Positions 2,168 through 25,238 of a stretch of 40,171 nucleotides of DNA are shown piece after piece. Positions within the stretch are counted from its first letter, which is position 1. Each line of letters opens with the position of its first letter. The DNA is from a virus, in the UHGV virus genome UHGV-0154679; one strand, written 5' to 3'. Position numbers and translations under genes: made by a program. The notes under the pieces were generated by a model. It was not told the DNA's origin. It was given only the letters and a program-made list of their open reading frames with translations, and ran no database searches.

Positions 2168-2168
2168 T

Positions 2169-4449: not shown

Positions 4450-4457
4450 AATAATAG
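4450..4457. repeat. IS26 target-site duplication, left copy (AATAATAG)
   Basis: Identical 8-mer at 5278-5285 directly abutting the other IS end. Confidence 0.9.
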
Positions 4458-5277: not shown

Positions 5278-5285
5278 AATAATAG
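5278..5285. repeat. IS26 target-site duplication, right copy (AATAATAG)
   Basis: Identical 8-mer at 4450-4457. Confidence 0.9.
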
Positions 5286-5317
5286 TCGTTACGCAATTGT
5301 TCTGGATGGGATTTGAT

Positions 5318-5569: not shown

Positions 5570-5654
5570 CGGCAAGATGGGGGAGAAATGTGATTAGCCC
5601 CCAGCGTGGCGCGCCTACAAACCCCGCTTTCACAAACTATGCCTTTTCAATGTA

Positions 5655-5674
5655 TACTGTATGAATAAACAGTA
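5655..5674 (+). promoter_or_regulatory. LexA (SOS) box TACTGTATGAATAAACAGTA upstream of humD
   Basis: Matches CTGT-N8-ACAG exactly; lies 19 nt upstream of the humD ATG. Confidence 0.8.
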
Positions 5675-5692
5675 TCATTGAGGTAAAACGCT

Positions 5693-6082: not shown

Positions 6083-6117
6083 GCTGCAAAGTGCTGGTGC
6101 TTTATGCCTGTGAAGTT

Positions 6118-6145
6118 TATAATTGTGTACGCATAACGAGTACAC
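6118..6145 (+). promoter_or_regulatory. phd-doc promoter/operator: TATAAT plus GTGTAC...GTACAC inverted repeat
   Basis: TATAAT at 6118-6123 followed by inverted repeat arms at 6125-6130 and 6140-6145, just upstream of the phd ATG. Confidence 0.5.
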
Positions 6146-6154
6146 GAGGTGTTT

Positions 6155-6376
6155 ATGCAATCCATTAACTTCCGTACCGCGCGTGGCAACCTTTCTGAAG
6201 TGCTCAACAATGTTGAAGCCGGGGAAGAGGTTGAAATCACCCGCAGAGGCCGTGAGCCAGCAGTAATTGTCAGCAAGGCTACTTTCGAAGCCTACAAAAA
6301 AGCGGCGCTGGATGCTGAATTTGCATCCCTGTTTGACACCCTGGACTCCACCAACAAGGAACTGGTTAACCGATAA
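6155..6376 (+). CDS. phd: Phd antitoxin (73 aa)
   Basis: [73 protein letters not shown], recognised as P1 Phd; TAATG overlap with doc. Confidence 0.92.
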
Positions 6377-6756
6377 TGAGGCATATATCACCGGAAGAAC
6401 TTATTGCGCTTCATGATGCGAATATAAGCCGCTACGGCGGCCTGCCGGGAATGTCTGATCCGGGTAGGGCAGAGGCCATTATCGGGAGAGTTCAGGCCAG
6501 AGTTGCCTACGAAGAGATCACCGACCTTTTCGAAGTCTCCGCCACCTACCTGGTGGCTACAGCGAGAGGGCATATATTCAATGATGCCAATAAGCGTACC
6601 GCGCTAAACAGCGCGCTGCTATTTCTACGCCGTAACGGGGTGCAGGTATTTGATTCACCTGAACTGGCAGACCTTACTGTAGGCGCTGCGACTGGCGAGA
6701 TATCTGTATCTTCTGTCGCCGACACGTTACGTAGATTGTATGGTTCTGCGGAGTAG
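6376..6756 (+). CDS. doc: Doc toxin (Fic-fold kinase, 126 aa)
   Basis: 126-aa protein translationally coupled to phd; recognised as P1 Doc. Confidence 0.92.
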
Positions 6757-6760
6757 ATTA

Positions 6761-6940
6761 ATGGCACGCAAATACAACAAATTGTCCCGTGAAGCGTTAA
6801 AGATGCTTCTTGATGGCGTGAGTCGCCGCAAGGTAAAGCAATACCTGGTTGGTAAGCAAATTGGAGTCAGGACCGCTATTGCTGTGTTATGCCGTCAGGA
6901 AATGGTTGTGCTTAAACAGAGAATGCCGGGCAGCAGATAA
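6761..6940 (+). CDS. Small basic protein downstream of doc (59 aa; pdcA position)
   Basis: ATG 6761 with GGAG 8 nt upstream; name by synteny only. Confidence 0.45.
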   Translation: MARKYNKLSREALKMLLDGVSRRKVKQYLVGKQIGVRTAIAVLCRQEMVVLKQRMPGSR

Positions 6941-6967
6941 AGCCCAATCAGTGATTAAAGGTGTGAT

Positions 6968-8011
6968 GTGAAAGCCATAATTACTCCCTTTGTACAGAAA
7001 GAGCTTGGCCTCGCCACGTTCAAAGTGGATCAGGAGGTCAGAAAGCTGGTGGAGGCTGGCCGTAAATTTATTATGGAGCCGGTGCCGCGTGAGTTAATCG
7101 AGCACATGGAAGACGGCCTCGTTGTTACCGAGCAAACCATGGCAACAAATGAGGCGTTGCAGCCGTTTTTTAACAGCGATGAACTGTTTCGCCGTATTGG
7201 TGGAATTGACGCGCTGGTGGCGTGGTTGCGTAGGAAAGAGGGTCAATGCCAGGCCGCAGATCGTAGTTGGTGTGACAACCATATTGTCCACGCTGAACGA
7301 GACAATAGCGCGGTGTTGTTGTGCTGGCATCACGATAACCATTACCGGATGCGTGGTTTTAATGAGCTGAAAGAAACGCTGCACAATAATCGCGTTAACT
7401 GGATACTGGATGTCGCCCGTCAGGAAATGGGCCTTTCAAATAGCCATGATTTAAGTATTCAGGAGCTGTGCTGGTGGGCTTTCATGCGCAACATGATGCA
7501 CCTGATGCCGGAAGAAGTCTGCCGCATATCAATAAATAAGATGAAGGCTACTCCGCAGGATAGCGGACCTCTGAAAGAGGCGGATATTCGCCCGTATGAC
7601 GATCGCGCTACAGCATATGTTCAGATGATGGAAGAACGCGCCGCGCCGATGCGTGCAAAAGTATGCCCTGTGGATGTTGACTCCGACCCTGGCATGGCGC
7701 ATTTCAAAATACCAAAACTGCGATCGCTAAAATTACCTGAGTACATGGACTTTGTTGCTTCCCGTCCATGCTGTGGGTGTGGAGCTGCGGGAGCTGGCGC
7801 TCACATTACGCCTTATATCGTTCGTCATAGTCGATTATGCGCGCATGACATTTACGCAATTCCTCTGTGCCAGTCATGCCAGCGTGATATTGAGCGTGAC
7901 CGCGATAATTGGGAGAAGACGCACGGTAGGCTGGCGATGCATCAACGATTGTTCTTTGATTACGCGCTTGGAGTCGGCGCTATCACAAGTCACTCGTCGA
8001 GCGGTAGATAA
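6968..8011 (+). CDS. Cys-rich protein downstream of doc (347 aa; pdcB position)
   Basis: GTG start with AAAGGTG SD; C-terminal CCGCG and CQSCQ cysteine clusters; name by synteny only. Confidence 0.5.
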
Positions 8012-8012
8012 A

Positions 8013-8029
8013 ATTGCTCTAATGTATTG
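8013..8029 (+). promoter_or_regulatory. C1 operator-like 17-mer ATTGCTCTAATGTATTG upstream of lpa
   Basis: Close match to the asymmetric P1 C1 operator consensus ATTGCTCTAATAAATTT as I recall it; a weaker overlapping copy at 8026-8042. Confidence 0.6.
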
Positions 8030-8099
8030 CTATTTCTTTAATCGAGGGTATTATATTCCACGTTGATTAGTTGACATGGGCTAATCAGTAGGTGACAGG

Positions 8100-8552
8100 A
8101 TGTTACTTAACTGGCAGGGACGCCACTTCATGGAAATAAATCACTCACGAATAACATCGTACGAGATTGCGGATTACATGATCCGCACTAAATCTCTTCT
8201 ATCAGCGAAAGAACTCGCAGCAATTCTTGAAAAGGAATACCCGCATCTGGATGTCGATAAGCGAGACGTTTATCTGCGCTTAAAGGCTATCGCTGTGTCT
8301 AAGTATTCGTCTGTTTTGATTGATGACAGTACACGCCCACGTAGATTTCAGATCCACTCTCTGAATCCTGAATTCTTTCGCCGCAGCCGCGCGCCGCGCC
8401 GGTTTGATGAAAAACTCCAGAACGACCTCTATATGACGCAGGACGAAAAGGAACGCCGGGAACACCAGCCTTGGGTAATGGCGCGTCAACTTTTCAATAA
8501 GGTAGCCCGTCAGCACCGTCATTACGGTAATGCCACATCCGCACGTATCTGA
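8100..8552 (+). CDS. lpa: Lpa, late promoter activator (150 aa)
   Basis: 150-aa basic protein immediately upstream of pacA and downstream of a C1 operator, as in P1. Confidence 0.75.
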   Translation: MLLNWQGRHFMEINHSRITSYEIADYMIRTKSLLSAKELAAILEKEYPHLDVDKRDVYLRLKAIAVSKYSSVLIDDSTRPRRFQIHSLNPEFFRRSRAPRRFDEKLQNDLYMTQDEKERREHQPWVMARQLFNKVARQHRHYGNATSARI

Positions 8553-8637
8553 TTGATTGCTTGCCCGTTCCGGGCCTTTTGACATGTGACTTTCGTTACC
8601 CTCGCGTCAAAAAGAGTTTTTACGAAAGGAAGCATAA

Positions 8638-9831
8638 GTGACCTGGGACGATCACAAGAAGAATTTTGCTCGCCTGGCGCGAGATGGTGGTTACACCATC
8701 GCACAATATGCCGCCGAGTTTAATCTCAACCCAAACACCGCACGTCGTTATCTCCGTGCATTCAAAGAAGACACCAGAACAGCGGACAGCCGTAAGCCAA
8801 ATAAGCCTGTCAGGAAACCACTAAAAAGCATGATCATTGATCACGCTAATGATCAACGTGCAGGTGATCACATTGTGGCTGAAATGGCTGAAAAACAAAG
8901 AGTTAATGCTGTTGTCAGTGCCGCAGTCGAGAACGCTAAGCGCCAAAATAAGCGCATAAATGATCGTTCTGATGATCATGACGTGATCACCCGCGCCCAC
9001 CGTACCTTACGTGATCGCCTGGAACGCGACACCCTGGATGATGATGGTGAACGCTTTGAATTCGAAGCTGGCGATTACCTGATAGATAACGTTGAAGCGC
9101 GGAAGGCCGCGCGCGCTATGTTGCGTCGGTCCGGGGCCGATGTTCTGGAAACCACTCTTCTGGAAAAGTCTCTTTCTCATCTCCTTATGCTGGAGAACGC
9201 CAGGGATACGTGTATTCGCCTGGTGCAGGAAATGCGCGATCAGCAAAAAGACGATGATGAAGGTACTCCGCCTGAATACCGTATCGCGAGCATGCTAAAC
9301 AGCTGTTCCGCGCAGATAAGCAGCCTGATCAACACCATTTACAGCATCCGGAATAACTATCGAAAAGAAAGCCGGGAGGCGGAAAAGCACGCTTTGTCTA
9401 TGGGGCAAGCTGGCATTGTTAAGCTGGCATACGAACGAAAGCGTGAAAATAACTGGTCAGTGCTGGAAGCAGCTGAATTCATTGAGGCGCATGGCGGGAA
9501 AGTGCCGCCCCTGATGCTGGAGCAAATCAAAGCCGATCTGCGTGCTCCTAAGACCAATACCGATGATGAGGAAAGGCAAACAGCCGTCGGTGGCCCTTCT
9601 CTTGAAGATCTGGACAAAGTTGCGCGAGAACGGGCCGCCAACCGCCGCGCCGATGCCGCATTGTGGATTGAGCAGCGTAGGGAAGAAATCGCCGATATCG
9701 TTGATACAGGCGGTTATGGAGATGTTGATACTGAAGGTGTATCAAACGACCCATGGCTGGAACAAGACCTGGACGAAGACGAGGAGGAAGACGAAGAAGT
9801 TACCCGCAAGCTATACGGGGATGATGATTAA
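8638..9831 (+). CDS. pacA: PacA, terminase small (pac-recognition) subunit (397 aa)
   Basis: GTG start with AAAGGAAG SD; 397 aa; contains the hexamer pac site in its 5' part; acidic C-terminus; TAATG coupling to pacB. Confidence 0.92.
8831..8989 (+). promoter_or_regulatory. pac packaging site: 4 + 3 TGATCA/G hexamers with Dam GATC sites
   Basis: Hexamers at 8831, 8838, 8850, 8865 (left cluster) and 8961 (TGATCG), 8973, 8984 (right cluster). Confidence 0.85.
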
Positions 9832-12749: not shown

Positions 12750-12766
12750 TAATTTATTAGAGCAAT
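12750..12766 (-). promoter_or_regulatory. C1 operator-like 17-mer (minus orientation; ATTGCTCTAATAAATTA)
   Basis: 16/17 match to the recalled consensus; in the immC control region upstream of coi/c1. Confidence 0.65.
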
Positions 12767-12832
12767 TGTCAAACAACTATGAAAAACAATCCAGTTTTTG
12801 GCTGGTGGAGTGGGATTTTTCTCTCAAAATTT

Positions 12833-12849
12833 ATTGCTCTAATAATTCT
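12833..12849 (+). promoter_or_regulatory. C1 operator-like 17-mer ATTGCTCTAATAATTCT
   Basis: Divergently oriented relative to the 12750-12766 copy, 67 bp apart. Confidence 0.6.
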
Positions 12850-12892
12850 TGATTTTTATGCGCAGCTGGACGTAAACTCCTCTTCGGACCTA

Positions 12893-12926
12893 ATAACTTC
12901 GTATAGCATACATTATACGAAGTTAT
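12893..12926 (+). other. loxP: loxP site-specific recombination site
   Basis: Exact 34-mer ATAACTTCGTATA-GCATACAT-TATACGAAGTTAT. Confidence 0.98.
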
Positions 12927-12998
12927 CTTAAGGGTTATTGAACATGATCAATTTACCTGTAAATCCATACAGTTCAATACCTTATCAGGTCAAATAGT

Positions 12999-13018
12999 GA
13001 TCACTTGATCATTTGATC
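12999..13018. promoter_or_regulatory. Cluster of three Dam GATC sites (TGATCA x3) in the lox-cre intergenic region
   Basis: GATC at 12999, 13007 and 13015; an imperfect long palindrome follows at about 13025-13082. Confidence 0.5.
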
Positions 13019-13115
13019 AAGGTTGCGCTACGTAAAATCTGCGAAATGTTGGCAGTGTTAGTGCTCCAGATTTCGCGTAGCGCACTTAGCACCACCAATC
13101 AATCAGAGGTGAAAA

Positions 13116-13344: not shown

Positions 13345-14376
13345 ATGTCCAATTTACTGACCGTACACCAAAATTTGCCTGCATTACCGGTCGATGCAAC
13401 GAGTGATGAGGTTCGCAAGAACCTGATGGACATGTTCAGGGATCGCCAGGCGTTTTCTGAGCATACCTGGAAAATGCTTCTGTCCGTTTGCCGATCGTGG
13501 GCGGCATGGTGCAAGTTGAATAACCGGAAATGGTTTCCCGCAGAACCTGAAGATGTTCGCGATTATCTTCTATATCTTCAGGCGCGCGGTCTGGCAGTAA
13601 AAACTATCCAGCAACATTTGGGCCAGCTAAACATGCTTCATCGTCGGTCCGGGCTGCCACGACCAAGTGACAGTAATGCTGTTTCACTGGTCATGCGACG
13701 GATCCGAAAAGAAAACGTTGATGCCGGTGAACGTGCAAAACAGGCACTGGCGTTCGAACGCACTGATTTCGACCAGGTTCGTTCACTCATGGAAAATAGC
13801 GATCGCTGCCAGGATATACGTAATCTGGCATTTCTGGGGATTGCTTATAACACCCTATTACGTATAGCCGAAATTGCCAGGATCAGGGTTAAAGATATCT
13901 CACGTACAGACGGTGGGAGAATGCTAATCCATATTGGCAGAACGAAAACGCTGGTTAGCACCGCAGGTGTAGAGAAGGCACTTAGCCTGGGGGTAACTAA
14001 ACTGGTCGAGCGATGGATTTCTGTCTCTGGTGTGGCTGATGATCCGAATAACTACTTGTTTTGCCGTGTCAGAAAAAATGGTGTTGCCGCGCCATCTGCC
14101 ACCAGCCAGCTATCAACTCGCGCCCTGGAAGGGATTTTTGAAGCAACTCATCGATTGATTTACGGCGCTAAGGATGACTCTGGTCAGAGATACCTGGCCT
14201 GGTCTGGACACAGTGCCCGTGTCGGAGCCGCGCGAGATATGGCCCGCGCCGGAGTTTCAATACCGGAGATCATGCAAGCTGGTGGCTGGACCAACGTAAA
14301 TATTGTCATGAACTATATCCGTAACCTGGATAGTGAAACGGGGGCAATGGTGCGCCTGCTGGAAGATGGCGATTAG
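13345..14376 (+). CDS. cre: Cre tyrosine recombinase (343 aa)
   Basis: Translation MSNLLTVHQNLPALPVDATSDEVRKNLMDMFRDRQAFSEHTW...MVRLLEDGD is recognised as Cre along its length; adjacent to loxP. Confidence 0.98.
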   Translation: MSNLLTVHQNLPALPVDATSDEVRKNLMDMFRDRQAFSEHTWKMLLSVCRSWAAWCKLNNRKWFPAEPEDVRDYLLYLQARGLAVKTIQQHLGQLNMLHRRSGLPRPSDSNAVSLVMRRIRKENVDAGERAKQALAFERTDFDQVRSLMENSDRCQDIRNLAFLGIAYNTLLRIAEIARIRVKDISRTDGGRMLIHIGRTKTLVSTAGVEKALSLGVTKLVERWISVSGVADDPNNYLFCRVRKNGVAAPSATSQLSTRALEGIFEATHRLIYGAKDDSGQRYLAWSGHSARVGAARDMARAGVSIPEIMQAGGWTNVNIVMNYIRNLDSETGAMVRLLEDGD

Positions 14377-14984: not shown

Positions 14985-15545
14985 ATGAAAACAATCGAAC
15001 AAAAACTTGAACAGCGCCGCGAGTGGCAGAAGGCAGCCAGAGAACGAGCGATCGCTCGGCAACGGGAAAAGTTGGCTGACCCCGCCTGGCGAGAATCGCA
15101 ATATCAGAAAATGCGGGATTCTATCGACCGCCGTATCGCTAAACAGAAAGAGCGCCCACCAGCCAGCAAAACGCGGAAAAGTGCGGTAAAGATAAAATCT
15201 CGTGGCTTGAAGGGGCGAACATCGACAGCGGAGGAACGGAGCATCGCCAATGCTCTTGGCGCTCTCCCCTGCATTGCCTGCTACATGCATGGAGTAATAT
15301 CTGAAGAGGTATCTCTGCACCATATCTCCGGTCGTACCGCGCCGGGTTGTCACAAAAAGCAATTGCCCCTTTGTAGATGGCACCACCAGCATGCAGCACC
15401 GGCTGAAGTAAGAGAAAAATACCCCTGGCTGGTCCCTGTTCATGCCGATGGTGTGGTTGGAGGCAAGAAAGAATTCACCTTGCTGAACAAGTCAGAGATG
15501 GAGTTGCTGGCTGACGCCTATGAGATGGCAAACATCATGCACTAA
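14985..15545 (+). CDS. ref: Ref, recombination enhancement function (HNH-type endonuclease, 186 aa)
   Basis: 186 aa from ATG 14985 (MKTIEQKLEQRREW...); basic N-terminus and C-terminal Cys/His HNH-like motifs. Track ORF starts at a TTG inside the operator and was trimmed. Confidence 0.8.
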   Translation: MKTIEQKLEQRREWQKAARERAIARQREKLADPAWRESQYQKMRDSIDRRIAKQKERPPASKTRKSAVKIKSRGLKGRTSTAEERSIANALGALPCIACYMHGVISEEVSLHHISGRTAPGCHKKQLPLCRWHHQHAAPAEVREKYPWLVPVHADGVVGGKKEFTLLNKSEMELLADAYEMANIMH

Positions 15546-15734
15546 TAAATATATTATTTTTAATCTGAAATAATTGACAACTGACAAGTGACTTCAGTCA
15601 GAATCATCACATGCCCGGTACGGATGGATCCCTTTTCAAATATTCCATGGACGGCACAGTCTGAGTACCGGGCGCTACCTTCAGTTGTATTGCTAAGCCG
15701 CCGCTGGTGGCTTTTCTTTTTTGTAGGGGGCGCT

Positions 15735-16376
15735 ATGGATAAGAAAATATGCGTTGTTTCGATGAGCGTCGGCAAACCGGCGTCAATGACTGCTGCATGG
15801 ATCAACAATGAGCTAATAATGGCTGAGCGGACCAGCTACCCTGAACGCCGCCGCGATATGGAACTCCAGCTGCTGCGCGAATTGCGAGAAAAAGAGGAAA
15901 AGGGTTTTATCGTGCTGGTGGAAGAGGAAAACAGCTTTATTACTGGTCGAGTTGGCCAGCGTGTAAGGTTGCGCGATCCCTTCATGAACGGCAGGCCGGT
16001 ACTAATTGAGGCAATGCAGATTTATAAGGAGCTGGAACGCCAGAAAGCAATCAAGTTACCGCGCAAGGAATCCGGCAAATACATCCTCCACCAAAGCATC
16101 TTCGATTCCGAACACGATAAAAAAGGCGATGAATTTTTCAACATCAACTGGAGCGAAATAACGACAGAGCATGTTCTGACGTTACTATGTTGCTTTGCGA
16201 CGGAATACAACAACGTTGCCAGCGCCGACTACATCAGGGCAATGGCTGGAGAAGTTGAGGCACGCCAGGAACCATCGTTACTAAGCCCTCTGATTAACAT
16301 AATTCGCGGGACCCAAACGCTGGCACAAAAACAGGTGCCTAAGGGAGTATTAACAGGAAAAGGAAATTATCTATAA
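15735..16376 (+). CDS. Protein at the mat (particle maturation) position (213 aa)
   Basis: ATG 15735 with GTAGGGGG SD (internal Met of track ORF 15588-16376); name by synteny only. Confidence 0.45.
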   Translation: MDKKICVVSMSVGKPASMTAAWINNELIMAERTSYPERRRDMELQLLRELREKEEKGFIVLVEEENSFITGRVGQRVRLRDPFMNGRPVLIEAMQIYKELERQKAIKLPRKESGKYILHQSIFDSEHDKKGDEFFNINWSEITTEHVLTLLCCFATEYNNVASADYIRAMAGEVEARQEPSLLSPLINIIRGTQTLAQKQVPKGVLTGKGNYL

Positions 16377-16432
16377 ACGTCAATGCATTAGGGTATACTT
16401 CTCCGTAGAACTATAAGTAAATGGAGTAAGTA

Positions 16433-17737
16433 ATGAGCGAGTATATAGAAATTGCCTATGCAGCGGCTACACATAGGCTGTGCTTTCTTACAGGCACTGG
16501 ATTTTCAAAGGCTGTTTCTGATGATAAAGCCCCAAGTTGGCAATCTTTATTGGAGCAACTGTGCGGTTTATTGAAGGATGGTGACTCACTCAAAGAGGAA
16601 TTATTTCCTGATGGAAAAGCAAAAGACCTTAGCCTTGAAGAAGCTGCTCAGGTTATTGCACTAAAACTTATACTTTCGGGGGAAAATATTTACCAAGAGA
16701 TTGAGAAAATCATAGCCTCAATCGAACTTGATCCATCAATTGAATATATTCAAGACTTTTTCAAAGAAAACACATTTAAAGTAATTACGACAAATTATGA
16801 CAAGTTAGCAGAAAAGCTGGCTGGAGAGAATCGAACTTGTACAATCACCCCCGGCCTGCCAATTCCAAAATATAATTGTGAGGTTAAAGTCTACCATGTT
16901 CACGGTTCTATAGACTCCCCATCAGACATGGTTGTTACTAGCGAGGATTATTTCAGATTTATAAATGGTAATTCTTACTTTTCTAATAAACTAAGCACAG
17001 TTCTACATGAAAACACTATTGTTATCCTTGGCTATTCTCTAAGTGACGCGAACCTAAAGGCTATTATAAATGAATATAAGGTATTTTCACGGGACAACGT
17101 AATGTCCTCCAATATTTTCCTTGTTTCCCGAGGGGAACTATTGCAACCTATTAAAGATTACTATTTTTCCTGCTATGGGGTTAGGGTTATAGATAAAACA
17201 GAGGTATCTGATTTCTTTAGAAAACTTAACGATAAAATTCCAGAAGCAAAAAAAATAAAAGACAAATTGAGGCACTCAATCAAATCGGTAATAAAAAACG
17301 GAAGAGAGTATAAAATAGAGTTCTTGAAGCTAGAGGATTCTTTTTATCATATCATTTCCTCCATTTCATCATCTGGATATAGCTGGAATAATGAAAATGT
17401 ATTAAATGTTTTTTGTAATATAATAGATAAAAAAATAGAGCTTACTAAAAAGCCTGGCGCATGGGAGCAGTATGAACACCTGGCAAAATGGCTTATTTAT
17501 TTCGGTAGTTTATTTGAAGTAAAAGGAACCAATTTTGAGAAAAAATACATACATGCGGTTGAACACTCAATGACTTATATGAATAAACCTTACGAAACAG
17601 GCTACTCATGGCGAGCATATCTAGCCTGGAAAACAAAATGGCCTTCACTGACAGCATCTAACCGCTCTCTTATTAAGAATGAGATGGAAGATATCCCGCT
17701 ACAACAGATTCACGATATTGTATCTAAGTTTATATAG
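16433..17737 (+). CDS. SIR2-like (SIR2_2-type) domain protein, 434 aa, candidate NAD+-depleting defence effector
   Basis: Motifs LCFLTGTGFSKAV (Gly-rich loop), VITTNYD (N121) and VYHVHGS (H155/H157) in SIR2-like order and spacing; C-terminal region of about 170 aa is Trp/Tyr-rich and unassigned; gene is visibly AT-rich compared with its flanks (not computed); SD GGAG 9 nt upstream. Confidence 0.7.
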   Translation: MSEYIEIAYAAATHRLCFLTGTGFSKAVSDDKAPSWQSLLEQLCGLLKDGDSLKEELFPDGKAKDLSLEEAAQVIALKLILSGENIYQEIEKIIASIELDPSIEYIQDFFKENTFKVITTNYDKLAEKLAGENRTCTITPGLPIPKYNCEVKVYHVHGSIDSPSDMVVTSEDYFRFINGNSYFSNKLSTVLHENTIVILGYSLSDANLKAIINEYKVFSRDNVMSSNIFLVSRGELLQPIKDYYFSCYGVRVIDKTEVSDFFRKLNDKIPEAKKIKDKLRHSIKSVIKNGREYKIEFLKLEDSFYHIISSISSSGYSWNNENVLNVFCNIIDKKIELTKKPGAWEQYEHLAKWLIYFGSLFEVKGTNFEKKYIHAVEHSMTYMNKPYETGYSWRAYLAWKTKWPSLTASNRSLIKNEMEDIPLQQIHDIVSKFI

Positions 17738-17745
17738 TATATTTA

Positions 17746-17774
17746 TCTCCGGCCTAATCTCCCTAGGCCGGAGA
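17746..17774. terminator. 9-bp stem hairpin TCTCCGGCC...GGCCGGAGA between convergent genes
   Basis: Sits between the SIR2-like gene stop (17737) and the minus-strand ORF stop (17779). Confidence 0.45.
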
Positions 17775-17778
17775 GTTC

Positions 17779-18027
17779 TTAATCAGCATTCAGGAGCAAT
17801 GCGTTATCTATGATGATCTGCTCCCATTCTTCGAATGCCCGATCGCGGACGCCCTGGGGAACACTGTTAGTTTTGAAATCGACGACCGTACGCCATTTCC
17901 CGTCCGGACGGTACATGCGCAGAGCTTTACTTCCCCCTTCCCTGCGCACCTCAACGTTATGCTTGTCAGCAAACTCTTGTAATGCTCGTAGCGTCCCATG
18001 CTTTACTGTGTAGTATCGCTTTTTCAA
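17779..18027 (-). CDS. Small protein at the lxc/bof position (82 aa)
   Basis: 82-aa ORF downstream of darB and its 146-aa neighbour; ATGA-coupled; name by synteny and size only. Confidence 0.4.
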   Translation of the reverse strand: MKKRYYTVKHGTLRALQEFADKHNVEVRREGGSKALRMYRPDGKWRTVVDFKTNSVPQGVRDRAFEEWEQIIIDNALLLNAD

Positions 18028-18464
18028 GTTTTCTCTCCAGCCTGTGCCAAGGCTTCAACTTCCAAATCGTAAGACTCAAACTCATAGTCCTGGTCGTCAA
18101 CTTCTTCAGGCACTGGCAGTAAATGCCAGGCTGAGTATATCTGACCATTATCAAAACGCTCCTGGCTGTAGAGCGTCGCGGCTATGAGTGTTAGCGCCGG
18201 GCGGTCATAACGGTAAATTTTGCGAACGTCACGGTCAACGAGACGACCGAAATTACCATAACCGCGCTCCAGTAATAATTTTTTAATTTCCGGCCAGTAT
18301 GGACCATAGCTGCGGTACAGGCGGGGATTTTTCAGTAATCGCCCGCGTAGCCCTGACAGGAAGAAATCAACGTATTCGTCTTCTGTCTTTCCTAACAACG
18401 CTGTACGGAGTACCGCCTCAAGATATGTTTTATTCGGTTTTATTGTATCAGATAGTGTGGCCAT
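18024..18464 (-). CDS. Protein at the ulx position downstream of darB (146 aa)
   Basis: Minus-strand ORF between darB and the 82-aa ORF; name by synteny only. Confidence 0.4.
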   Translation of the reverse strand: MATLSDTIKPNKTYLEAVLRTALLGKTEDEYVDFFLSGLRGRLLKNPRLYRSYGPYWPEIKKLLLERGYGNFGRLVDRDVRKIYRYDRPALTLIAATLYSQERFDNGQIYSAWHLLPVPEEVDDQDYEFESYDLEVEALAQAGEKT

Positions 18465-18497: not shown

Positions 18498-21400
18498 TTA
18501 TGCGTATTGTTGGATGACGGCCAGAACGTCCGCCACGTTGTGTTTTGTCTCGATAATCCACCAGTTACCCGGGAAATCGCTGTTCTTCGCCTTCGCTGGC
18601 AGCCAGCGAGCGCCGAATTTCGCCTTGATTGCGTCTTTCGCACGGAAAAGAACGCCTTTCATGCCTGAGGCTTCCTGAAGCCCAAATACCTCGCCAGCGG
18701 CGAATTTTGGTGCGTACATCATCTTCAGGTCGGCGGTGGATACGCGATAATTCAGACCAAGAGACTGAGCTATGCTGGTGGCATCACCCTGTATTGATGA
18801 TAACTCTTCTTGTTTCTCGTTTCTGGCGGCAATCTCTTCCTCCGTGATGTTGCCAAGGGCCAGGTTTATCCGATCAGCGTCGGCCTGTTTCTCTTCATCG
18901 GTGCGCCCGGCAAGAACCGTGTTAATTCTCTGCAATATCTCCACATGATTCTTGCGCATGCTGAGCAATTCCGGCGTAACCTCGTTAAGATCCACCAGCC
19001 CAAGGATGGCAAGGTCGGAAAACATTGATACCAGGTTGTAGGTCATGCGATAGCTGAGTTGACCATAGGCTGATGGCAACTTCACCGCATCCATTTGATA
19101 GGCATCCATAAATTTAGAGCCGTCGTTTACGATATCCGCTATTGCAGGTGTGATTTTCCCTGTGGTGGCGGCCTCCCTGATTGCTGTTACCCACGATTGA
19201 GTCAGCGCGGCGACTGCATGATTCAGATTGGCTTCCCGTTCTGCTGCGATGCGCGCGCTTGCTGCGTCCATTGCCTGCTTGATCTCGGCTTTATTGCTGT
19301 AAATGCCAATGGTGCCAAACTGTGCTGTGGTGATCTCATAATCTGACGCCCGGAACTCATTGGTACCGAAAATGGCATTGGTGACTTCAAGTTCAGAATC
19401 CCCGTTACGAGTAGCCCCCTGGCTTGTTTTTTCCGGCATTCTGGCGATCGCATCCGCTATTTTCTCCTGAATTGCTTCAGGGGATAGCGTATCTCCGTAT
19501 GACGCGATTACATCGCCATAATTGGAGCCAAACAATTCAACCAGGAATGTTTCTGCCGAACGGATCTGGCGGTTATTCCCTTCCGACATCATACCAAGCA
19601 CCCATTTTGCAATTGACGACTTCAGCGCGCCGTCACGGCGATCCGGGTAAACCGCATGCTTCAGTGGGTCCGTATAGGTACCAACAAAATCAATGCTATA
19701 GCCTGACTCTGTAGTCTGAACGCCGTACGAGTCAGTGATTTTGATCATGCCGCGCTGCTGGAAACGGTAGAAATCGTCACAGGAAATGATGTCGTTAATC
19801 CCGGCGATGGAGACGCCACCACTGATTTTCTGCATAACAGCATCTTCATCGGGAGTTACATCCACCTGTTTATCCAGCGTCTTCACATCCCAGTTACCCG
19901 ATTTGGTGCCTTTGAAGGTAAAGATGATCTCCACGTCTGCGCGCTGGCTGTCGAAGTCCAGCGACTTAATGCGAACGATATCACCGGCACAATCGTAGTA
20001 TTGGCCTACACGCCATGAGCGATCGCCGATAACAAGGAACTCATTCGCATGGTTAACCAGATCAGGATCAACATCCAGAATGCCTTTATTTATTGCATCC
20101 TCCACCAGCGGGCGCAGGCGTTTGATATCCGTCGCGGCCTTCTGAGTACGGTTCAATAATTTCTCATAGCGGGAGATGGCTTGAGAGATATTAGCCTTGC
20201 GCTGAATGGCGTTTTTCAACGACGCGCGATACTGTGCTAACAACATACGGTCTGTGTGATGGACGCTCCCCCAGCGGGCCTTCCAGTCTGCGTTATCAGC
20301 TGCTTTGGCCATTACCGCCTGTTTGAATTTAGCTACCTCGGCGGTGGTCTTTTCAAGTTCCGCTTTGCTTCGCTCTAATTCAGCGGTAAGTACCTCCACA
20401 TCCTCGCCAGCTGCGTGCTGCGCCTTGATGTAGTTCTGAAGGTCGATAGTAGCCTGTTCTTTCTGGCGAGCGCATTGCGCGGCTTTCGCCTTATCCATTT
20501 GAACCTGCATCATTGCCAGACGTTCGCCATCATCCTTAGCGGTATACATCTGCATTTCGATCATATCGTTGGCGTCGGCGTTCTCCATTTCTGACTTATC
20601 TGAACGGAGGATATCGGAGATCCAGCCTGCTTTACGCTTCAGCGTCTTCAGTCGGTATTCATCGAAAGAACCCTTGCCGCAGTAGTAATGAACGCGAACG
20701 CTTGCACGGTTGGAGCCAACTCGGGCACCGCGACCGTTACGCTGTGCGATACTGGCTGGTGTCCATGGCAACGTCAGATGATGGATGTCAGTCGTTCCTC
20801 GATGCAGGTTGATACCCACCTCTGCCTTTTTGTTGCAGATGATGATCGGAGTCCGGCCCTCCTGGAAGTCGGCAGCAATCTTTTCCAGCCCACCCAGCGA
20901 CATTTCATTTTGCTGCGCGATATAGGCGTCATACAGAGCCATTTGCTCGTTGTATTTCGCTATCTGTGCATCTGTTGGTTCATCCGGTAGCTCTTTCGGT
21001 GGTTTAACCGCTTTCAGTTTCTTACCGGTTTTACCTGCCTCGGCAACCGTCTGAGCATTCAGGATACCCACCTTTGAAGGTTCAAGGTTAAGAGCATTGC
21101 AGATAATGCGCTTGAGCTTCTGGTGCTGCGTTTTTTCATCGGTGAAGATGATTTGCTTACCTTCCGGGAAAAACTCCTTCAGCGTGGCGATCAGCTTCGC
21201 GTATTTGGGTGTAACGGGGTGAGTTACGGTCTGTTCGTCAATGCCAAACTTGGCCAGGCGCTTATTCACTTCCTGCTCAAATGCTTCCGGTACCTGCAAC
21301 TGAATAAACTCGCCCTTATCTATCAGGGAGTATTGCGATTGCTGCGTGATCGAATCATCACTGTCGTCGTCTTCGCTGGTGGCTTGTTTAGGCAAACTGT

Positions 21401-24400
21401 CCGCCAGCTGCTGCACCGCATCGGCGTACTCCGGCAGGAAACGATAGGTGATCCTGCGATAGTACAGGTCCATGTCAGTACATACGCGGTCCATATCCCT
21501 GATTATTGAGAAGATCGGACGGGCTTTCTCGTGCTCAATCACGCCGTCTTCATTGACCGAGGTCGTTACGCCATTGTTGGCTTTGGCTGCCGCTTCCGCC
21601 TGCTGACGCAATTCTTCATACGCCGCCAGTTGTTCTTCAGTAAGTGGTGCATCCTGCTGGTGTTCGTCCAGTTCCGGGATCTCCACGGTATCCTTAACGT
21701 CTTCCGCCGTTTTAAGCGTTGTCCAGCGATGGAATATGCCGCGCAGCGCATCAAGGTTTTCAAAGCCCACCAGCGCCATTTTTTCTTCAACTTCACCGCT
21801 GATTTTCTGTACCGTTTCCAGCCTGGTCTTGCCGAAGAATTTAACGAAGTCATCAGGACCGTAGATCCCCATCTTCTGCCAGTATTCTTTCGGCAGAACA
21901 TGAGAAAGCATGTTGTATGCATCGATCGGGGTGTTAACGACTGGCGTTGCAGTCAGGAGAACCGGTCCGCGCCCGCCATTCTTTTTCATCAGGTACGCGT
22001 TTTTGATTGCCATATCTCGCGCCGATTGCGCCACCGCGCTGGTGGGCAGATAGGCCAGCTGTGACGCTTCGCGACCATTTTTATAGCTATTGCGGTAGTT
22101 GTGGCCTTCGTCGGCGATCACGCTGTCGAAGCCCATATCCTCAAAGTACGGATACTTCTCTGCTTTTTCGGTACCGGTATCTGAATACTCCGACAATACC
22201 CGGCGACGCGCCGCCTCTTTGCGATGGGAATCGGAATCCATTGCGCTGGCCACACGTCCGGCAGCAACGAAGTCATAAAGCATGTCTTGTGCATGCTCAT
22301 CTACGGTGTCATCACGTAGCGGAATGCGGGCGTATTGTTCTTTGGTAAACACGACTGCACGGTAATTTGAGTGCGGGATCGCATTCATCCGCGCCGTGAT
22401 AGTGGCTTCATCTGCCAGCTTAAGAGCATCGCGCATAACTGGAGTGCCATCAGTACCAAGAACAGGTTTACCGTTCTCATCGAGCACCGGCACCTGGCGA
22501 ATCTGATCGCCATCCATCAGCACATCAAGACCGACGAACAAGTAGTTACTGAATGCCTCTTCACTCAGGAATTCTTTAGCTTCGTAATACCAATTTTCCA
22601 GCACTGATTTAGGCACTACATAAGCAGTACGGGTGGAGCGACCGTTCTCATAGTTGAACGCCTCAAGCGCCAGCGCGGTCGTGGTTTTACCCAGCCCGGT
22701 GCCGAAGCCCAGGATGCCGCGCCCATCTTCGGACAGTCGGCGCACCTCGCTATTCTGGTAATCAAATGGCTGGCGCTTACCGCTTAATCCCTTCAACCCA
22801 AGCGGATCGCCAGAGTGTTCAAACGGGATATTGCTATTGAACACATCGTTGTATTTGGCAACCAGCTCATCGTAGCGATCGTGCGTCTTGATCCACTTAT
22901 TGAACTGGTCCTCAAGCAGTGCCATCTGCTCGCGGTAGCCGTTCGCCGTCGCGCTATCTTTGCCACCGATACGCGCACCATTGAGATACTTTTCCAGCTG
23001 TGCCGGGAACCCGGTCGCGTTTTCACCTGATTTACGGTCCCACTCGTAGCGGATCTCGCCTGTTTCTTTATCCTTGCGCTGGACGACACCGTATCGGTGC
23101 CCGACGAACAGGCCATCACCACCGTGATAGGTGTCAGAAACCATTTCGTCGCCTTCCAGCTGCACTGACTGCACATAGCGCAGATCCGGATAGCCGTTTT
23201 CCTGCAAAAACTCCAGAATGACGGAACGGTCGAACCAACGGCTATTGAGCTTAAACCGGATATTCTCTGCTGGCGTCTTGATGCGCTTCTCTTCGATCGC
23301 TGCCAGCTGATTAAGGACGTTGTTCTTTACTGGACCGTCGGGGAGCGTGGCGAGGAATTCCTGTTTTGGAGCCACTATCTCGTTAATGTCGCCGCTGGTG
23401 GCGCGGGCGAACGGAACAATCCCGCCATACGGTGAAACCGCAATACCAGGAGTGCTGGCCAATAAATTAAGCAACTCTTCATCACTGGCTGGCAATTCGC
23501 CGGTAAACGCAAGGCGGAAATCATCGCTATAGAGATAACGCAGGGTGTCCTGATAGCTGGTGGAGTCATAACTGGCGCTGGAATCATGCGTAACCAGCTT
23601 TCCTGTCAGCTCGTCAGAAATAGTGCCATCCAGCTTAATTGCACCACGGAAAGCAAACCAGGCGCGCGCACCGCTTCCCGATAATTTAGCTATCGGACCG
23701 CGACCAGGGTTACCAAAACGGTCAATCTCTGCCTGCAAACGGGATACCAGAGAAAGGCGCTGCTGTTCGATTTGTTCAGCACTATGCCCGGCGGCCTTCA
23801 TATCCTGATATTCAATTAACATCCGGCCAATCATCGCCCCACGATACAAGCGTTCACGGTATTTTTCAGGCTGGCTGTTAATCCAGTCCACCAGCTGCAC
23901 CATATCGTCGCTGATTGATGTGGTGTACTTATCGCGGACATTTGCCATCTGGGTAAATGTCATACCGAGACGGCCTTCTGTTGTAGTCAGGTTACGCTGA
24001 AGAGCCTCCCAGCTATCCGCGCCATAACTGGCAGCATCAATTTTAAGTTCCTTCCCGGCATCAGCTTCAATCCAGCGACCACCAGCATATTTTTGCCATA
24101 CGCCATTAATCAGGCGCATTTCCCCTTCACCAACAACGTCTGCGGTCAGTGACGGTTCAGCCATATCGAGCAAAGACCAGTCGATACGGCTTTCGAAACG
24201 ATGAATCAGCTTCGCTTTAAGAGCCTGGTTATCAATCTGACCGTCGGCACGAACCTCAATACGCCCCTGGAAGCCCTTTTCCTGGGTGCCATGAACAAAC
24301 CGGCGGCCATCCTTTTCAAACCACTTGCCAGAAATAAACGTTGGCCAAAGCACATTTGCCGATTCAAGAGTGCTTTCATCCACCAGGGGGATTTTCTCAG

Positions 24401-25238
24401 CCATCTCTGCCGGATGTTTGCGCATCAGCACCACATCAACGACTGTACTGGTCCCGTTTGCGTCAAAAGTACCGGTAGGCAAGCGGTGGGCACCAAGAAA
24501 TTCAGCTTTCCGTGATAGGCGCAGGCGTAACCGCTTCATGTTTGAACCTGAAACAATGGACGGCGGCACAATCACGCACATGAATCCGCCTGGCTTTATC
24601 TTGTCCAGCATGCGGAGCATGAAGTAAGAACCCATGTCCGTTTCTTCTGCGTAAGGCTTATCGATGTTGCGTGTGTTATCACGACCGCCGAACGGAACGT
24701 TACCCACAACATGGTCGAATGAATCGTTAGGCGTGCTTATAGCCAGCTGTTCGAACGGGGAAATCTGTACGCTGTCTTCCGGGTGTAACAACTGGTTTAT
24801 ACGACCGGAAACACTGCTGATCTCAGTCGCGGTCATCACCGTACCAACCGGTTTTGTCTCATTAAAAACGCCGGTTCCCGCCGATGGTTCCAGAGTGTTA
24901 CCTACGTCCGCGCCGTAGAGCTTCATGATCTCCCAGACACCTTCAGCGATCGGCTTTGGTGTGTAATATTCGGAGACGGACCCGCCAATGCCGCCTTCAC
25001 CGGTGTACCCAGCCAGGATCTGGCGCTGTTCATCTGTCAGTGTCGCGCCGTCCACCAGCGAATTAAGCAAATCTATCGCCTTCTGATTCGCCTCCCGGCG
25101 TAGTCGGTCATAGCTTTTGCCTTCCACCTTTTCCACGCCGTATCTAATCGGCGCTCGGTGAGATGTTATTGCCCTAATGTATTTCAATATTTCGCTGACA
25201 CTTGAACAGCGAAACACCCCCATAGATAGCTTGTTCAT
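18498..25238 (-). CDS. darB: DarB, injected antirestriction protein (methyltransferase plus helicase, 2246 aa)
   Basis: N-terminal adenine-methyltransferase-like motifs (GNVPFGG) and a central SF2 helicase core (GTGLGKTTTAL, VIADEGHNYRN, LLTATPVVNT); size close to P1 DarB. Confidence 0.9.
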   Translation of the reverse strand: MNKLSMGVFRCSSVSEILKYIRAITSHRAPIRYGVEKVEGKSYDRLRREANQKAIDLLNSLVDGATLTDEQRQILAGYTGEGGIGGSVSEYYTPKPIAEGVWEIMKLYGADVGNTLEPSAGTGVFNETKPVGTVMTATEISSVSGRINQLLHPEDSVQISPFEQLAISTPNDSFDHVVGNVPFGGRDNTRNIDKPYAEETDMGSYFMLRMLDKIKPGGFMCVIVPPSIVSGSNMKRLRLRLSRKAEFLGAHRLPTGTFDANGTSTVVDVVLMRKHPAEMAEKIPLVDESTLESANVLWPTFISGKWFEKDGRRFVHGTQEKGFQGRIEVRADGQIDNQALKAKLIHRFESRIDWSLLDMAEPSLTADVVGEGEMRLINGVWQKYAGGRWIEADAGKELKIDAASYGADSWEALQRNLTTTEGRLGMTFTQMANVRDKYTTSISDDMVQLVDWINSQPEKYRERLYRGAMIGRMLIEYQDMKAAGHSAEQIEQQRLSLVSRLQAEIDRFGNPGRGPIAKLSGSGARAWFAFRGAIKLDGTISDELTGKLVTHDSSASYDSTSYQDTLRYLYSDDFRLAFTGELPASDEELLNLLASTPGIAVSPYGGIVPFARATSGDINEIVAPKQEFLATLPDGPVKNNVLNQLAAIEEKRIKTPAENIRFKLNSRWFDRSVILEFLQENGYPDLRYVQSVQLEGDEMVSDTYHGGDGLFVGHRYGVVQRKDKETGEIRYEWDRKSGENATGFPAQLEKYLNGARIGGKDSATANGYREQMALLEDQFNKWIKTHDRYDELVAKYNDVFNSNIPFEHSGDPLGLKGLSGKRQPFDYQNSEVRRLSEDGRGILGFGTGLGKTTTALALEAFNYENGRSTRTAYVVPKSVLENWYYEAKEFLSEEAFSNYLFVGLDVLMDGDQIRQVPVLDENGKPVLGTDGTPVMRDALKLADEATITARMNAIPHSNYRAVVFTKEQYARIPLRDDTVDEHAQDMLYDFVAAGRVASAMDSDSHRKEAARRRVLSEYSDTGTEKAEKYPYFEDMGFDSVIADEGHNYRNSYKNGREASQLAYLPTSAVAQSARDMAIKNAYLMKKNGGRGPVLLTATPVVNTPIDAYNMLSHVLPKEYWQKMGIYGPDDFVKFFGKTRLETVQKISGEVEEKMALVGFENLDALRGIFHRWTTLKTAEDVKDTVEIPELDEHQQDAPLTEEQLAAYEELRQQAEAAAKANNGVTTSVNEDGVIEHEKARPIFSIIRDMDRVCTDMDLYYRRITYRFLPEYADAVQQLADSLPKQATSEDDDSDDSITQQSQYSLIDKGEFIQLQVPEAFEQEVNKRLAKFGIDEQTVTHPVTPKYAKLIATLKEFFPEGKQIIFTDEKTQHQKLKRIICNALNLEPSKVGILNAQTVAEAGKTGKKLKAVKPPKELPDEPTDAQIAKYNEQMALYDAYIAQQNEMSLGGLEKIAADFQEGRTPIIICNKKAEVGINLHRGTTDIHHLTLPWTPASIAQRNGRGARVGSNRASVRVHYYCGKGSFDEYRLKTLKRKAGWISDILRSDKSEMENADANDMIEMQMYTAKDDGERLAMMQVQMDKAKAAQCARQKEQATIDLQNYIKAQHAAGEDVEVLTAELERSKAELEKTTAEVAKFKQAVMAKAADNADWKARWGSVHHTDRMLLAQYRASLKNAIQRKANISQAISRYEKLLNRTQKAATDIKRLRPLVEDAINKGILDVDPDLVNHANEFLVIGDRSWRVGQYYDCAGDIVRIKSLDFDSQRADVEIIFTFKGTKSGNWDVKTLDKQVDVTPDEDAVMQKISGGVSIAGINDIISCDDFYRFQQRGMIKITDSYGVQTTESGYSIDFVGTYTDPLKHAVYPDRRDGALKSSIAKWVLGMMSEGNNRQIRSAETFLVELFGSNYGDVIASYGDTLSPEAIQEKIADAIARMPEKTSQGATRNGDSELEVTNAIFGTNEFRASDYEITTAQFGTIGIYSNKAEIKQAMDAASARIAAEREANLNHAVAALTQSWVTAIREAATTGKITPAIADIVNDGSKFMDAYQMDAVKLPSAYGQLSYRMTYNLVSMFSDLAILGLVDLNEVTPELLSMRKNHVEILQRINTVLAGRTDEEKQADADRINLALGNITEEEIAARNEKQEELSSIQGDATSIAQSLGLNYRVSTADLKMMYAPKFAAGEVFGLQEASGMKGVLFRAKDAIKAKFGARWLPAKAKNSDFPGNWWIIETKHNVADVLAVIQQYA

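What the first reader, a model, noticed from the sequence alone, without database searches (positions are those of the whole stretch)
15735..18027. The mat-lxc interval is a compact AT-rich cargo cassette; res, mod and IS1 are absent
In P1 as I recall it, mat is followed by res and mod (EcoP1I), IS1 and isaA/isaB, roughly 7-8 kb, before lxc/ulx/darB. Here the same interval is about 1.4 kb and holds only the SIR2-like ORF, whose composition is visibly more AT-rich than both flanks. A 9-bp-stem hairpin (17746-17774) closes the cassette against the convergent lxc-position ORF. This looks like a swappable defence slot in P1-like phage-plasmids. The prophage still carries the Dar antirestriction proteins but apparently no restriction system of its own in this window.
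Basis: partly seen in the sequence, partly recalled or inferred. Interest (0 to 1): 0.6.

Follow-up and report, generated by a model that had tools for sequence, protein, structure and literature searches.

The report
Swappable defence slot in P1-like plasmid
In this P1-like phage-plasmid, the spot between the mat and lxc genes where phage P1 keeps its restriction enzyme holds a single AT-rich gene for a SIR2-type NAD-destroying enzyme, one of at least 14 alternative fillings of a variable region that was already published.

Summary
Between the mat stop (16376) and the lxc stop (17779) lie 1,402 bp at 35.9% GC, the lowest-GC 1.4 kb of the window (mean 48.4%). They hold one real ORF (16433-17737, 434 aa, SIR2_2). 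It is closed by a hairpin at 17746-17774, which has an 11-bp stem, not 9. res and mod are absent. IS1, isaA and isaB never lie in this interval in P1. They sit between ssb and hxr, and isaA is present in the window at 29576-30532.

The "swappable slot" reading is supported. Among 73 IMG/VR P1-like loci the interval has 14 states, including empty, type III RM, CapRel and two SIR2 alleles. All fillings are AT-rich. The right junction is sharp at the lxc stop codon. The left junction is graded across the last ~100 nt of mat. The variable region is already published (Venturini 2019 "RD-1"; "region 1 res-mod", 2022), and the validated CapRel-SJ46 sits in the same slot.

The SIR2 protein has a defence-type NADase domain (N121/H157) and a HEAT-like C-terminal domain. 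It has no conserved partner gene. Homologues lie in prophages, a satellite and defence islands. It is most likely a one-protein sensor-NADase causing abortive infection, but this is untested. Modest interest.

The parts
15536..15604 (+). mat control region: C1 operator Omat (15536-15553), sigma-70 promoter Pmat and late promoter LPmat (15574-15604), mapped from the P1 annotation
   Evidence: The alignment to P1 2620-2730 is nearly identical.
15735..16376 (+). mat (maturation control), 213 aa. This is the conserved left anchor of the slot.
   Evidence: 96% identical to P1 Mat. Seven of the nine differences lie in the last 45 residues.
16245..16376 (+). Variable 3' tail of mat: the graded left boundary of the exchanged module. 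The tail still encodes a homologous C-terminus in every variant.
   Evidence: A multiple alignment of seven P1-like elements loses identity progressively over the last ~60-130 nt of mat.
16377..17778 (.). Cargo cassette (1,402 bp, GC 0.359): everything between the mat stop and the lxc stop
   Evidence: The megablast match to P1 and P7 stops at these points.
16423..16426 (+). Shine-Dalgarno GGAG, 6 nt before the ATG of the SIR2 ORF
   Evidence: Read directly from the sequence.
16433..17197 (+). SIR2 (NADase-type) domain of the 434-aa ORF, residues 1-255. It has a GTGFS NAD-binding loop (residues 21-25), catalytic N121 (16793-16795) and H157 (16901-16903).
17198..17737 (+). C-terminal all-helical (HEAT-like alpha-solenoid) domain, residues 256-434, plus the stop codon. 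It is the presumed sensor.
17746..17774 (.). Perfect 11-bp GC-rich hairpin with a 7-nt loop, between the convergent SIR2 and lxc genes. It is a likely terminator on the + strand, and perhaps for lxc as well.
   Evidence: Twelve of the 14 slot variants carry their own, different hairpin at this position.
17779..18027 (-). lxc (modulator of C1): the conserved right anchor. The breakpoint is sharp at its stop codon.
   Evidence: 100% identical to P1 Lxc. Junction alignment.
18024..18464 (-). ulx (Dar antirestriction component)
18498..25238 (-). darB (methyltransferase/helicase antirestriction protein)

Best explanation
The window comes from a P1-like phage-plasmid. The mat-lxc interval is one of the recognised variable regions of P1-like elements, the res-mod region called RD-1. 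Whole cargo modules are exchanged there by ordinary homologous recombination in the conserved flanks. The crossover can fall anywhere inside the 3' end of mat on the left, and in lxc-ulx-darB on the right.

In this element the module is a single AT-rich gene plus its own terminator hairpin. The gene encodes a 434-aa protein with two parts: an N-terminal defence-type SIR2 NADase domain and a C-terminal HEAT-like helical domain.

The most likely mechanism is as follows. In the lysogen the protein is made at a low level and kept inactive. During infection by another phage, the helical domain binds a phage protein. The enzyme is then activated, probably by oligomerising as its structural relatives do. 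It hydrolyses cellular NAD+, which aborts the infection and protects both the clonal population and the resident plasmid-prophage.

Shown here: the anatomy, the variability of the slot, the fold and catalytic residues, purifying selection, and the defence and mobile-element contexts of homologues.

Inferred: NADase activity, the trigger, the abortive-infection outcome, the expression route, and recombination as the exchange mechanism.
For: Slot:
- There are 14 content types in 73 loci. All cargo is at GC 0.32-0.43, against a ~0.48-0.50 backbone.
- Empty sites exist, in RCS47 and in 8 IMG/VR loci.
- The right junction is sharp at the lxc stop and the left junction is graded in the mat tail.
- No flanking repeats and no recombinase gene are present.
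- The window and an empty-slot locus differ at 0 of 686 nt in lxc-ulx and 6 of 500 nt in mat. Loci with the same cargo differ by up to 140 nt in the same flanks.
- The region is published as variable.
- Validated defence occupants are EcoP1I and CapRel-SJ46.

Gene:
- PF13289 at 83 bits.
- PADLOC matches only SIR2 defence models: PDC-S25, ThsA, LmuA, Dsr2.
- PDB sequence matches are ThsA, DSR2 and KomC.
- N121, H157 and the GTGFS loop are invariant in 35 homologues.
- The family keeps its full length (431-437 aa, 54-61% identity) across many gamma-proteobacteria.
- pN/pS is 0.27 among 8 intact alleles.
- Homologues lie next to a lambdoid prophage integrase, in a P4-like satellite, and beside type I RM+GmrSD, OLD/UvrD-like genes and other defence-like genes.
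- There is no conserved neighbouring gene.
Against: - No experiment on this family was found in the literature library.
- No convincing sigma-70 promoter lies directly upstream of the ORF. The best candidates score 8 of 12. The gene sits only 56 nt after mat, whose promoters are C1-repressed or late. Expression in the lysogen is therefore unproven.
- The C-terminal domain gives only generic alpha-solenoid matches, so a sensor role is an analogy with DSR2.
- Two of 11 IMG/VR copies are frameshifted.
- Some slot occupants have no known defence link: GNAT, EAL+AraC and a lipoprotein.
- No pair of loci with different cargo has both flanks fully identical, so no very recent swap was caught.
Confidence: 0.65

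Rival explanations
1. The SIR2 protein serves the P1-like element's own life cycle, not defence. It would act as a protein deacylase or ADP-ribosyltransferase, co-transcribed with mat during lytic growth, that modifies a host or phage protein.
For: It is co-directional with mat and only 56 nt downstream, with no strong promoter of its own. The mat promoters are C1-controlled or late. RefSeq labels it 'NAD-dependent protein deacylase'.
Against: - The slot is empty in 8 of 73 loci and in RCS47, and holds unrelated genes in most others, so nothing in it is needed for the life cycle.
- Homologues occur outside P1 contexts, in defence islands.
- I did not see CxxC pairs, the zinc module of classical sirtuins, in the translated sequence. 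This is my reading and was not formally tested.
Confidence: 0.1
2. The interval is a general cargo ('moron') slot with no special link to defence. The SIR2 gene is simply one AT-rich passenger whose function in this context is neutral or decaying.
For: GNAT, EAL+AraC, YaaC+deoxyribosyltransferase-like and lipoprotein cargos match no defence model. Two of 11 SIR2 copies are frameshifted. Published descriptions treat the region as a hot spot for foreign DNA in general.
Against: 49 of 65 non-empty loci carry validated or candidate defence genes: type III RM, CapRel, SIR2, JukA-like, PDC-S31 and PDC-S34. pN/pS of 0.27 indicates selection on the SIR2 gene. The allele is kept at 97.7-99.9% identity in 65 plasmids from many hosts and countries.
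Confidence: 0.15
3. The cassette moves by a dedicated site-specific or transposition mechanism, like an integron cassette or a miniature mobile element, and not by homologous recombination in the flanks.
For: The right junction is exact to the base at the lxc stop codon in all variants. Each cassette ends in a hairpin, which could in principle be a recombination site.
Against: - There are no direct or inverted terminal repeats and no target duplication around the cargo.
- The cassette carries no recombinase.
- The hairpins differ in sequence between cargos.
- The left junction is graded over ~100 nt of coding sequence, which is the signature of homologous exchange.
- SIR2 alleles 1 and 2 share 89% identity only over the mat tail, the spacer and the first ~80 nt of the ORF.
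Confidence: 0.05

Closest known systems
P1 variable region RD-1 / 'region 1 (res-mod)' of P1-like phage-plasmids (Venturini et al. 2019, PMC6906374; PMC9603915, 2022)
   Same: The boundaries are exactly the same: P1 3469-9749, from the base after the mat stop to the base before the lxc stop. It shares the low G+C and the replacement of res-mod by element-specific ORFs.
   Different: Those papers describe a handful of elements, or gene presence/absence, and frame the region as a hot spot for foreign DNA or resistance genes. They do not name SIR2. They do not catalogue the occupants or point out that most are defence genes.
DSR2 (defence-associated sirtuin 2, Bacillus subtilis)
   Same: It is a single-protein system with an N-terminal SIR2 NADase and a helical-repeat C-terminal region. 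In DSR2 that region binds a phage tail-tube protein and switches on NAD+ hydrolysis. It gives the best Foldseek matches, and the catalytic N/H pair is conserved (abstracts).
   Different: DSR2 is about 1,000 aa, with MID and CTD domains, and is a tetramer. This protein is 434 aa. Sequence similarity is confined to the SIR2 core. The NCBIfam Dsr2 score is 30 bits against a cut-off of 1400.
CapRel-SJ46 (fused toxin-antitoxin of Salmonella phage SJ46; Zhang et al. 2022, PMC9712102)
   Same: It occupies the same mat-lxc slot of a P1-like element, on the same strand, as a single gene with its own terminal hairpin. It follows the same logic: an effector domain fused to a C-terminal sensor that recognises a phage protein.
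   Different: Its effector is a RelA/SpoT-type pyrophosphokinase, not a SIR2 NADase. It is experimentally validated, and this SIR2 is not.
EcoP1I type III restriction-modification (res, mod) of phage P1
   Same: It occupies the same slot, has low GC and a defence function.
   Different: It is two genes of 5.1 kb on the opposite strand. mod is transcribed from promoters that overlap the 3' end of lxc, and there is no terminal hairpin. It restricts DNA and does not deplete a metabolite.
Defence hot spots of P2-like phages and P4-like satellites (Rousset et al. 2022, cited in PMC10879196)
   Same: Fixed positions between conserved phage genes carry interchangeable compact defence systems. A homologue of this SIR2 sits in a P4-like satellite of Klebsiella oxytoca.
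   Different: They belong to a different phage family and different anchors.

Membership tests
P1-like variable region RD-1 (res-mod slot) | Lies between the stop codons of mat and lxc on a P1-type backbone | tested here: met
   Mat is 96% and Lxc 100% identical to P1. cre, c8, ref, ulx and darB are in P1 order.
P1-like variable region RD-1 (res-mod slot) | Content differs between P1-like elements while the flanks are conserved | tested here: met
   14 content types in 73 loci. 65 and 57 of ~670-699 PLSDB backbones carry the SIR2 alleles.
P1-like variable region RD-1 (res-mod slot) | Lower G+C than the backbone | tested here: met
   0.359 against 0.484. All cargo types are at 0.32-0.43.
Defence-type SIR2 NADases (Pfam SIR2_2, PF13289) | Match to PF13289 above the gathering score | tested here: met
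   83.4 bits against a cut-off of 24.5.
Defence-type SIR2 NADases (Pfam SIR2_2, PF13289) | Catalytic Asn and His and the glycine-rich NAD loop are conserved | tested here: met
   N121, H157 and G21/G23/S25 are invariant in 35 homologues. They align to the TTNYD and HG motifs of ThsA and DSR2.
Defence-type SIR2 NADases (Pfam SIR2_2, PF13289) | NAD+ hydrolysis triggered by infection, and protection against phage | not testable with these tools
   Needs plaque assays and NAD+ measurement. No published test was found.
DSR2 | About 1,000-aa protein with SIR2, MID and CTD domains; NCBIfam equivalog NF041819 | tested here: not met
   The protein is 434 aa. It scores 30 bits against a cut-off of 1400, with only the SIR2 core aligned.
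Thoeris ThsA | C-terminal SLOG/STALD ligand-binding domain and an adjacent TIR gene (thsB) | tested here: not met
   The PADLOC ThsA match covers only residues 118-222. The CTD is an alpha-solenoid. The slot holds one gene.
SIR2-HerA (Nezha) | Adjacent HerA helicase gene | tested here: not met
   There is no second gene in the slot, and no conserved neighbour in six other contexts.
Lamassu (LmuA with SIR2 effector) | Adjacent SMC-like LmuB gene | tested here: not met
   The LmuA model matches residues 20-219 only. There is no partner gene.
PADLOC candidate PDC-S25 | Full-length match to the 517-528-position profiles | tested here: inconclusive
   It is the best PADLOC hit (E 5e-24), but only profile positions 128-278 of 517 align.
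Type III RM EcoP1I | res and mod genes present | tested here: not met
   P1 res-mod has no blastn match in the window.

The most novel reading that the evidence does not exclude
The 434-aa SIR2 + HEAT-like protein founds an uncharacterised, widespread family of standalone 'mini-DSR' phage sensors. It is present in about 18% of P1-like plasmids and also in prophages, satellites and defence islands of many gamma-proteobacteria. On this reading the mat-lxc slot is a discovery-grade hot spot, and its other unclassified occupants (DUF2971/PDC-S31, PIN_12/PDC-S34, YaaC+deoxyribosyltransferase-like, GNAT, EAL+AraC) would also be new anti-phage systems.
Probability: 0.4. Interest if true: 0.55.

Novelty: new member of a known kind. 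Interest (0 to 1): 0.38.

Why it matters
P1-like phage-plasmids are common in E. coli and Salmonella: about 700 PLSDB plasmids carry this backbone. They move between strains as viruses. A fixed slot that carries interchangeable immune genes means these elements spread phage resistance, which bears on phage therapy and on the fitness of their hosts.

The slot already yielded two textbook systems, EcoP1I and CapRel-SJ46. Its other occupants, including this SIR2 protein, are therefore a short, well-defined list of candidates for new single-gene defence systems with compact sensors.

The finding itself is not surprising to a specialist. The variable region is published, and SIR2 NADases are a known effector class.

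Tried and rejected
- **Flanking repeats, att-like sites or IS ends around the cargo:** only short chance matches were found.
- **A sigma-70 promoter for the SIR2 gene:** the standard scan found none on the + strand upstream. A relaxed scan gave only 8-of-12 candidates. The expression route stays open.
- **A conserved partner gene:** the upstream and downstream genes in four other genomes are unrelated to one another and to Mat.
- **Published work on this protein or on SIR2 in P1-like elements:** none was found by term search or by the RefSeq accession. The V. cholerae SIR2 paper concerns Nezha (SIR2-HerA), not this family. The Sir2-HerA classification paper and the domain-centric screen do not cover standalone SIR2.
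- **tblastn of the protein against deposited phage genomes:** only weak SIR2-core hits in Gram-positive phages. The gene is in plasmid records, not in records deposited as phages.
- **Pairs of loci with different cargo but identical flanks:** none exist. The closest pair differs at 6 of 1,186 nt. The first attempt at the flank analysis timed out.
- **Errors:** two literature searches failed on terms that were too short.
Full report
**What is in the sequence**

The window is a P1-type phage-plasmid backbone. The gene order is cre (13345-14376), c8, ref, mat (15735-16376, +), one ORF at 16433-17737 (+), then lxc (17779-18027, -), ulx (18024-18464, -) and darB (18498-25238, -). Mat is 96% and Lxc 100% identical to the P1 proteins.

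The interval between the mat and lxc stop codons is 16377-17778, or 1,402 bp. Its GC content is 0.359, against 0.474 and 0.505 in the 2-kb flanks and 0.484 for the window. It is the lowest-GC 1.4-kb stretch in the 40 kb (profile). The only substantial ORF is the 434-aa one, which matches Pfam SIR2_2 (PF13289, 83 bits). A GGAG lies 6 nt before its ATG.

Eight nucleotides after its stop codon there is a perfect 11-bp stem with a 7-nt loop at 17746-17774. The hairpin ends 4 nt before the lxc stop codon. It folds at -20.8 kcal/mol on the + strand and -22.2 on the - strand, with z-scores of -5.3 and -4.7. The + strand has the better U-tract.

- In the P1 reference, mat ends at 3468 and lxc at 9750. 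The interval (3469-9749, 6.3 kb) holds res, mod and the IS5 of the mod749::IS5 laboratory strain. Natural type III RM versions of the slot are about 5.1 kb.
- IS1, isaA and isaB are not there. They lie at 21569-24132, between ssb and hxr.
- In the window, res, mod, IS5, IS1 and isaB have no match, but isaA is present at 29576-30532.
- The hairpin stem is 11 bp, not 9.

**Is it a variable slot?**

Yes. Deposited P1-like phages already show an empty slot and several different fillings:
- RCS47 is empty, with 39 bp between mat and lxc.
- 673R5 and SJ46 carry RelA/SpoT (CapRel) genes.
- JL22 carries a 316-aa gene.
- Ro157c2YLVW carries a two-gene cargo.
- P1 carries res-mod.

I fetched 80 IMG/VR loci through Lxc. 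In 73 of them both anchors were found, and I clustered the intervals. There are 14 states:

| Slot content | Loci |
|---|---|
| This SIR2 allele | 11 |
| DUF2971 protein of 346 aa (PADLOC PDC-S31) | 10 |
| Empty | 8 |
| Type III RM | 7 |
| PIN_12 protein of 316 aa (PDC-S34) | 6 |
| CapRel, two alleles (PDC-S33) | 6 + 3 |
| Antirepressor + HTH + JukA-like | 4 |
| GNAT, two alleles | 4 + 3 |
| YaaC + deoxyribosyltransferase-like | 4 |
| EAL + AraC-like (the second gene was read from its sequence, not scanned) | 4 |
| Second SIR2 allele, 57% amino-acid identity | 2 |
| Small lipoprotein | 1 |

Every cargo is AT-rich (GC 0.32-0.43). By locus count, 49 of the 65 non-empty slots carry validated or candidate defence genes.

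In PLSDB the lxc-ulx backbone occurs in 699 records, 670 of them at 80% coverage or more. SIR2 allele 1 is full-length in 65 of these. Allele 2 and a relative of it are in 57. In complete E. coli genomes, 69 of 5,426 carry allele 1, almost always on plasmids.

**Boundaries and exchange mechanism**

The right junction is exact. All variants become alignable at the lxc stop codon.

The left junction is graded. Identity decays over the last ~60-130 nt of mat, while the encoded C-terminus stays recognisable. Each cargo therefore brings its own version of the mat tail. Seven of the nine Mat differences from P1 lie in the last 45 residues.

There are no terminal repeats, no target duplications and no recombinase. 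The window and an empty-slot locus (L047) differ at 0 of 686 nt in lxc-ulx and 6 of 500 nt in mat. Loci with the same cargo differ by up to 140 nt over the same flanks. SIR2 alleles 1 and 2 are 89% identical only over the mat tail, the spacer and the first ~80 nt of the ORF, and 68% overall.

All of this fits reassortment by homologous recombination in the flanks. That mechanism is inferred, not demonstrated.

Twelve of the 14 variants end with their own, unrelated GC-rich hairpin next to the lxc stop. The exceptions are the type III RM, whose mod promoters overlap lxc, and one other variant. The hairpin's role, insulating the convergent lxc-ulx-darB unit from the cargo, is therefore conserved while its sequence is not.

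**The SIR2 protein**

- Sequence matches are confined to the SIR2 core of antiphage proteins: ThsA, DSR2, KomC, LmuA-SIR2 and PDC-S25.
- N121, H157 and the GTGFS loop are invariant in 35 homologues.
- The family is large and keeps its length: 431-437 aa for most members, at 54-61% identity. It occurs in Vibrio, Halomonas, Marinobacter, Pseudoalteromonas, Klebsiella, Pantoea, Pseudomonas and the E. coli chromosome.
- Homologues sit next to the integrase of a lambdoid prophage (E. coli), inside a P4-like satellite (K. oxytoca), beside type I RM and GmrSD (Marinobacter), beside OLD/UvrD-like genes (P. putida), and among HNH, HsdR_N, DUF87 and STAND-like genes (Halomonas).
- No neighbouring gene is shared.
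- Among eight intact allele-1 variants pN/pS is 0.27. Two of 11 IMG/VR copies are frameshifted.

**Mechanism proposed**

The protein is a one-protein sensor-effector. The helical domain would recognise a phage component, the SIR2 domain would be switched on, NAD+ would be depleted and the infection would abort. This is by analogy with DSR2 and with the same-slot CapRel-SJ46.

The weak point is expression. There is no good promoter in the 56-nt spacer or in the mat tail. The conserved mat promoters are C1-repressed or late. Either leaky read-through or an unrecognised promoter must be assumed.

**Comparison with what is known**

The variable region is already published. Venturini et al. 2019 define RD-1 as P1 3469-9749, note its low G+C, and note that res-mod is replaced by element-specific ORFs. 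A 2022 survey lists 'region 1 (res-mod)' among eight variable regions.

Surveys of defence systems in P1-like elements report type III RM, dGTPase, PrrC and CapRel, but not SIR2 and not the location. No paper in the library links SIR2 with P1-like elements.

The protein is not a member of DSR2, ThsA, SIR2-HerA or Lamassu, because defining features of each were tested and not met. It is best called a new, uncharacterised member of the defence-type SIR2 NADases, sitting in a known hot spot.

**Verdict**

The remembered P1 map was partly wrong. Novelty is limited: the hot spot is known and the effector class is known. The specific SIR2 + HEAT family and the catalogue of occupants are the useful additions.

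Noticed in passing
window 29576-31619: This is the second P1 variable region (RD-2, isaA-IS1-isaB). isaA is present, 94% identical to P1. IS1 and isaB are replaced by an overlapping 364-aa ORF (30525-31619) with no Pfam or PADLOC match.
   Followed up: partly
window 15695-15713: A terminator-like hairpin followed by a T-run (AAGCCGCCGCTGGTGGCTT TTCTTTTTTG) lies between the conserved Pmat/LPmat promoters (15574-15604) and the mat ATG at 15735. It falls inside the longer 250-aa Mat reading frame annotated in P1. It could be a leader or attenuator, or it could be evidence that the 213-aa Mat is the real product.
   Followed up: no
IMG/VR loci L016-L095, last 60 nt before the lxc stop: Twelve of the 14 slot variants end in their own unrelated GC-rich hairpin next to the lxc stop codon. 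The function of the position is conserved and the sequence is not.
   Followed up: partly
L056 10250-11791 (-) versus window 16251-17778: A second SIR2 allele (435 aa, 57% amino-acid identity) occupies the same slot. It is 89% identical to the window only over the mat tail, the spacer and the first ~80 nt of the ORF, and 68% overall. PLSDB holds 57 records with this allele or a variant 80-90% identical to it.
   Followed up: partly
L042 and L094 (IMG/VR copies of the SIR2 cargo): Two of 11 copies of the SIR2 gene carry 1-nt indels that break the reading frame. They may be pseudogenes or assembly errors.
   Followed up: no
about window 15050-15650 (ref and its surroundings), seen in the left-flank alignment of 73 loci: In the left-flank alignment of P1-like loci, per-site nucleotide diversity is 0.09-0.19 upstream and drops to 0.01-0.045 in about the last 600 alignment columns, approaching mat. 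Some locus pairs differ by about 18% over this flank. Divergent upstream flanks are combined with the same slot cargo.
   Followed up: no
L098 / L099 (Klebsiella oxytoca), gene at 8001-9308: A 57%-identical homologue of the SIR2 protein lies inside a P4-like satellite (integrase, Ash-like protein, P4-type primase, P2-type capsid gene). The same single-gene module therefore circulates between different kinds of mobile element.
   Followed up: no
window 12750-13049 and 2001-3000: There are other low-GC dips in the window: 0.34 just upstream of cra/cre, and 0.395 at 2-3 kb. I did not examine them.
   Followed up: no
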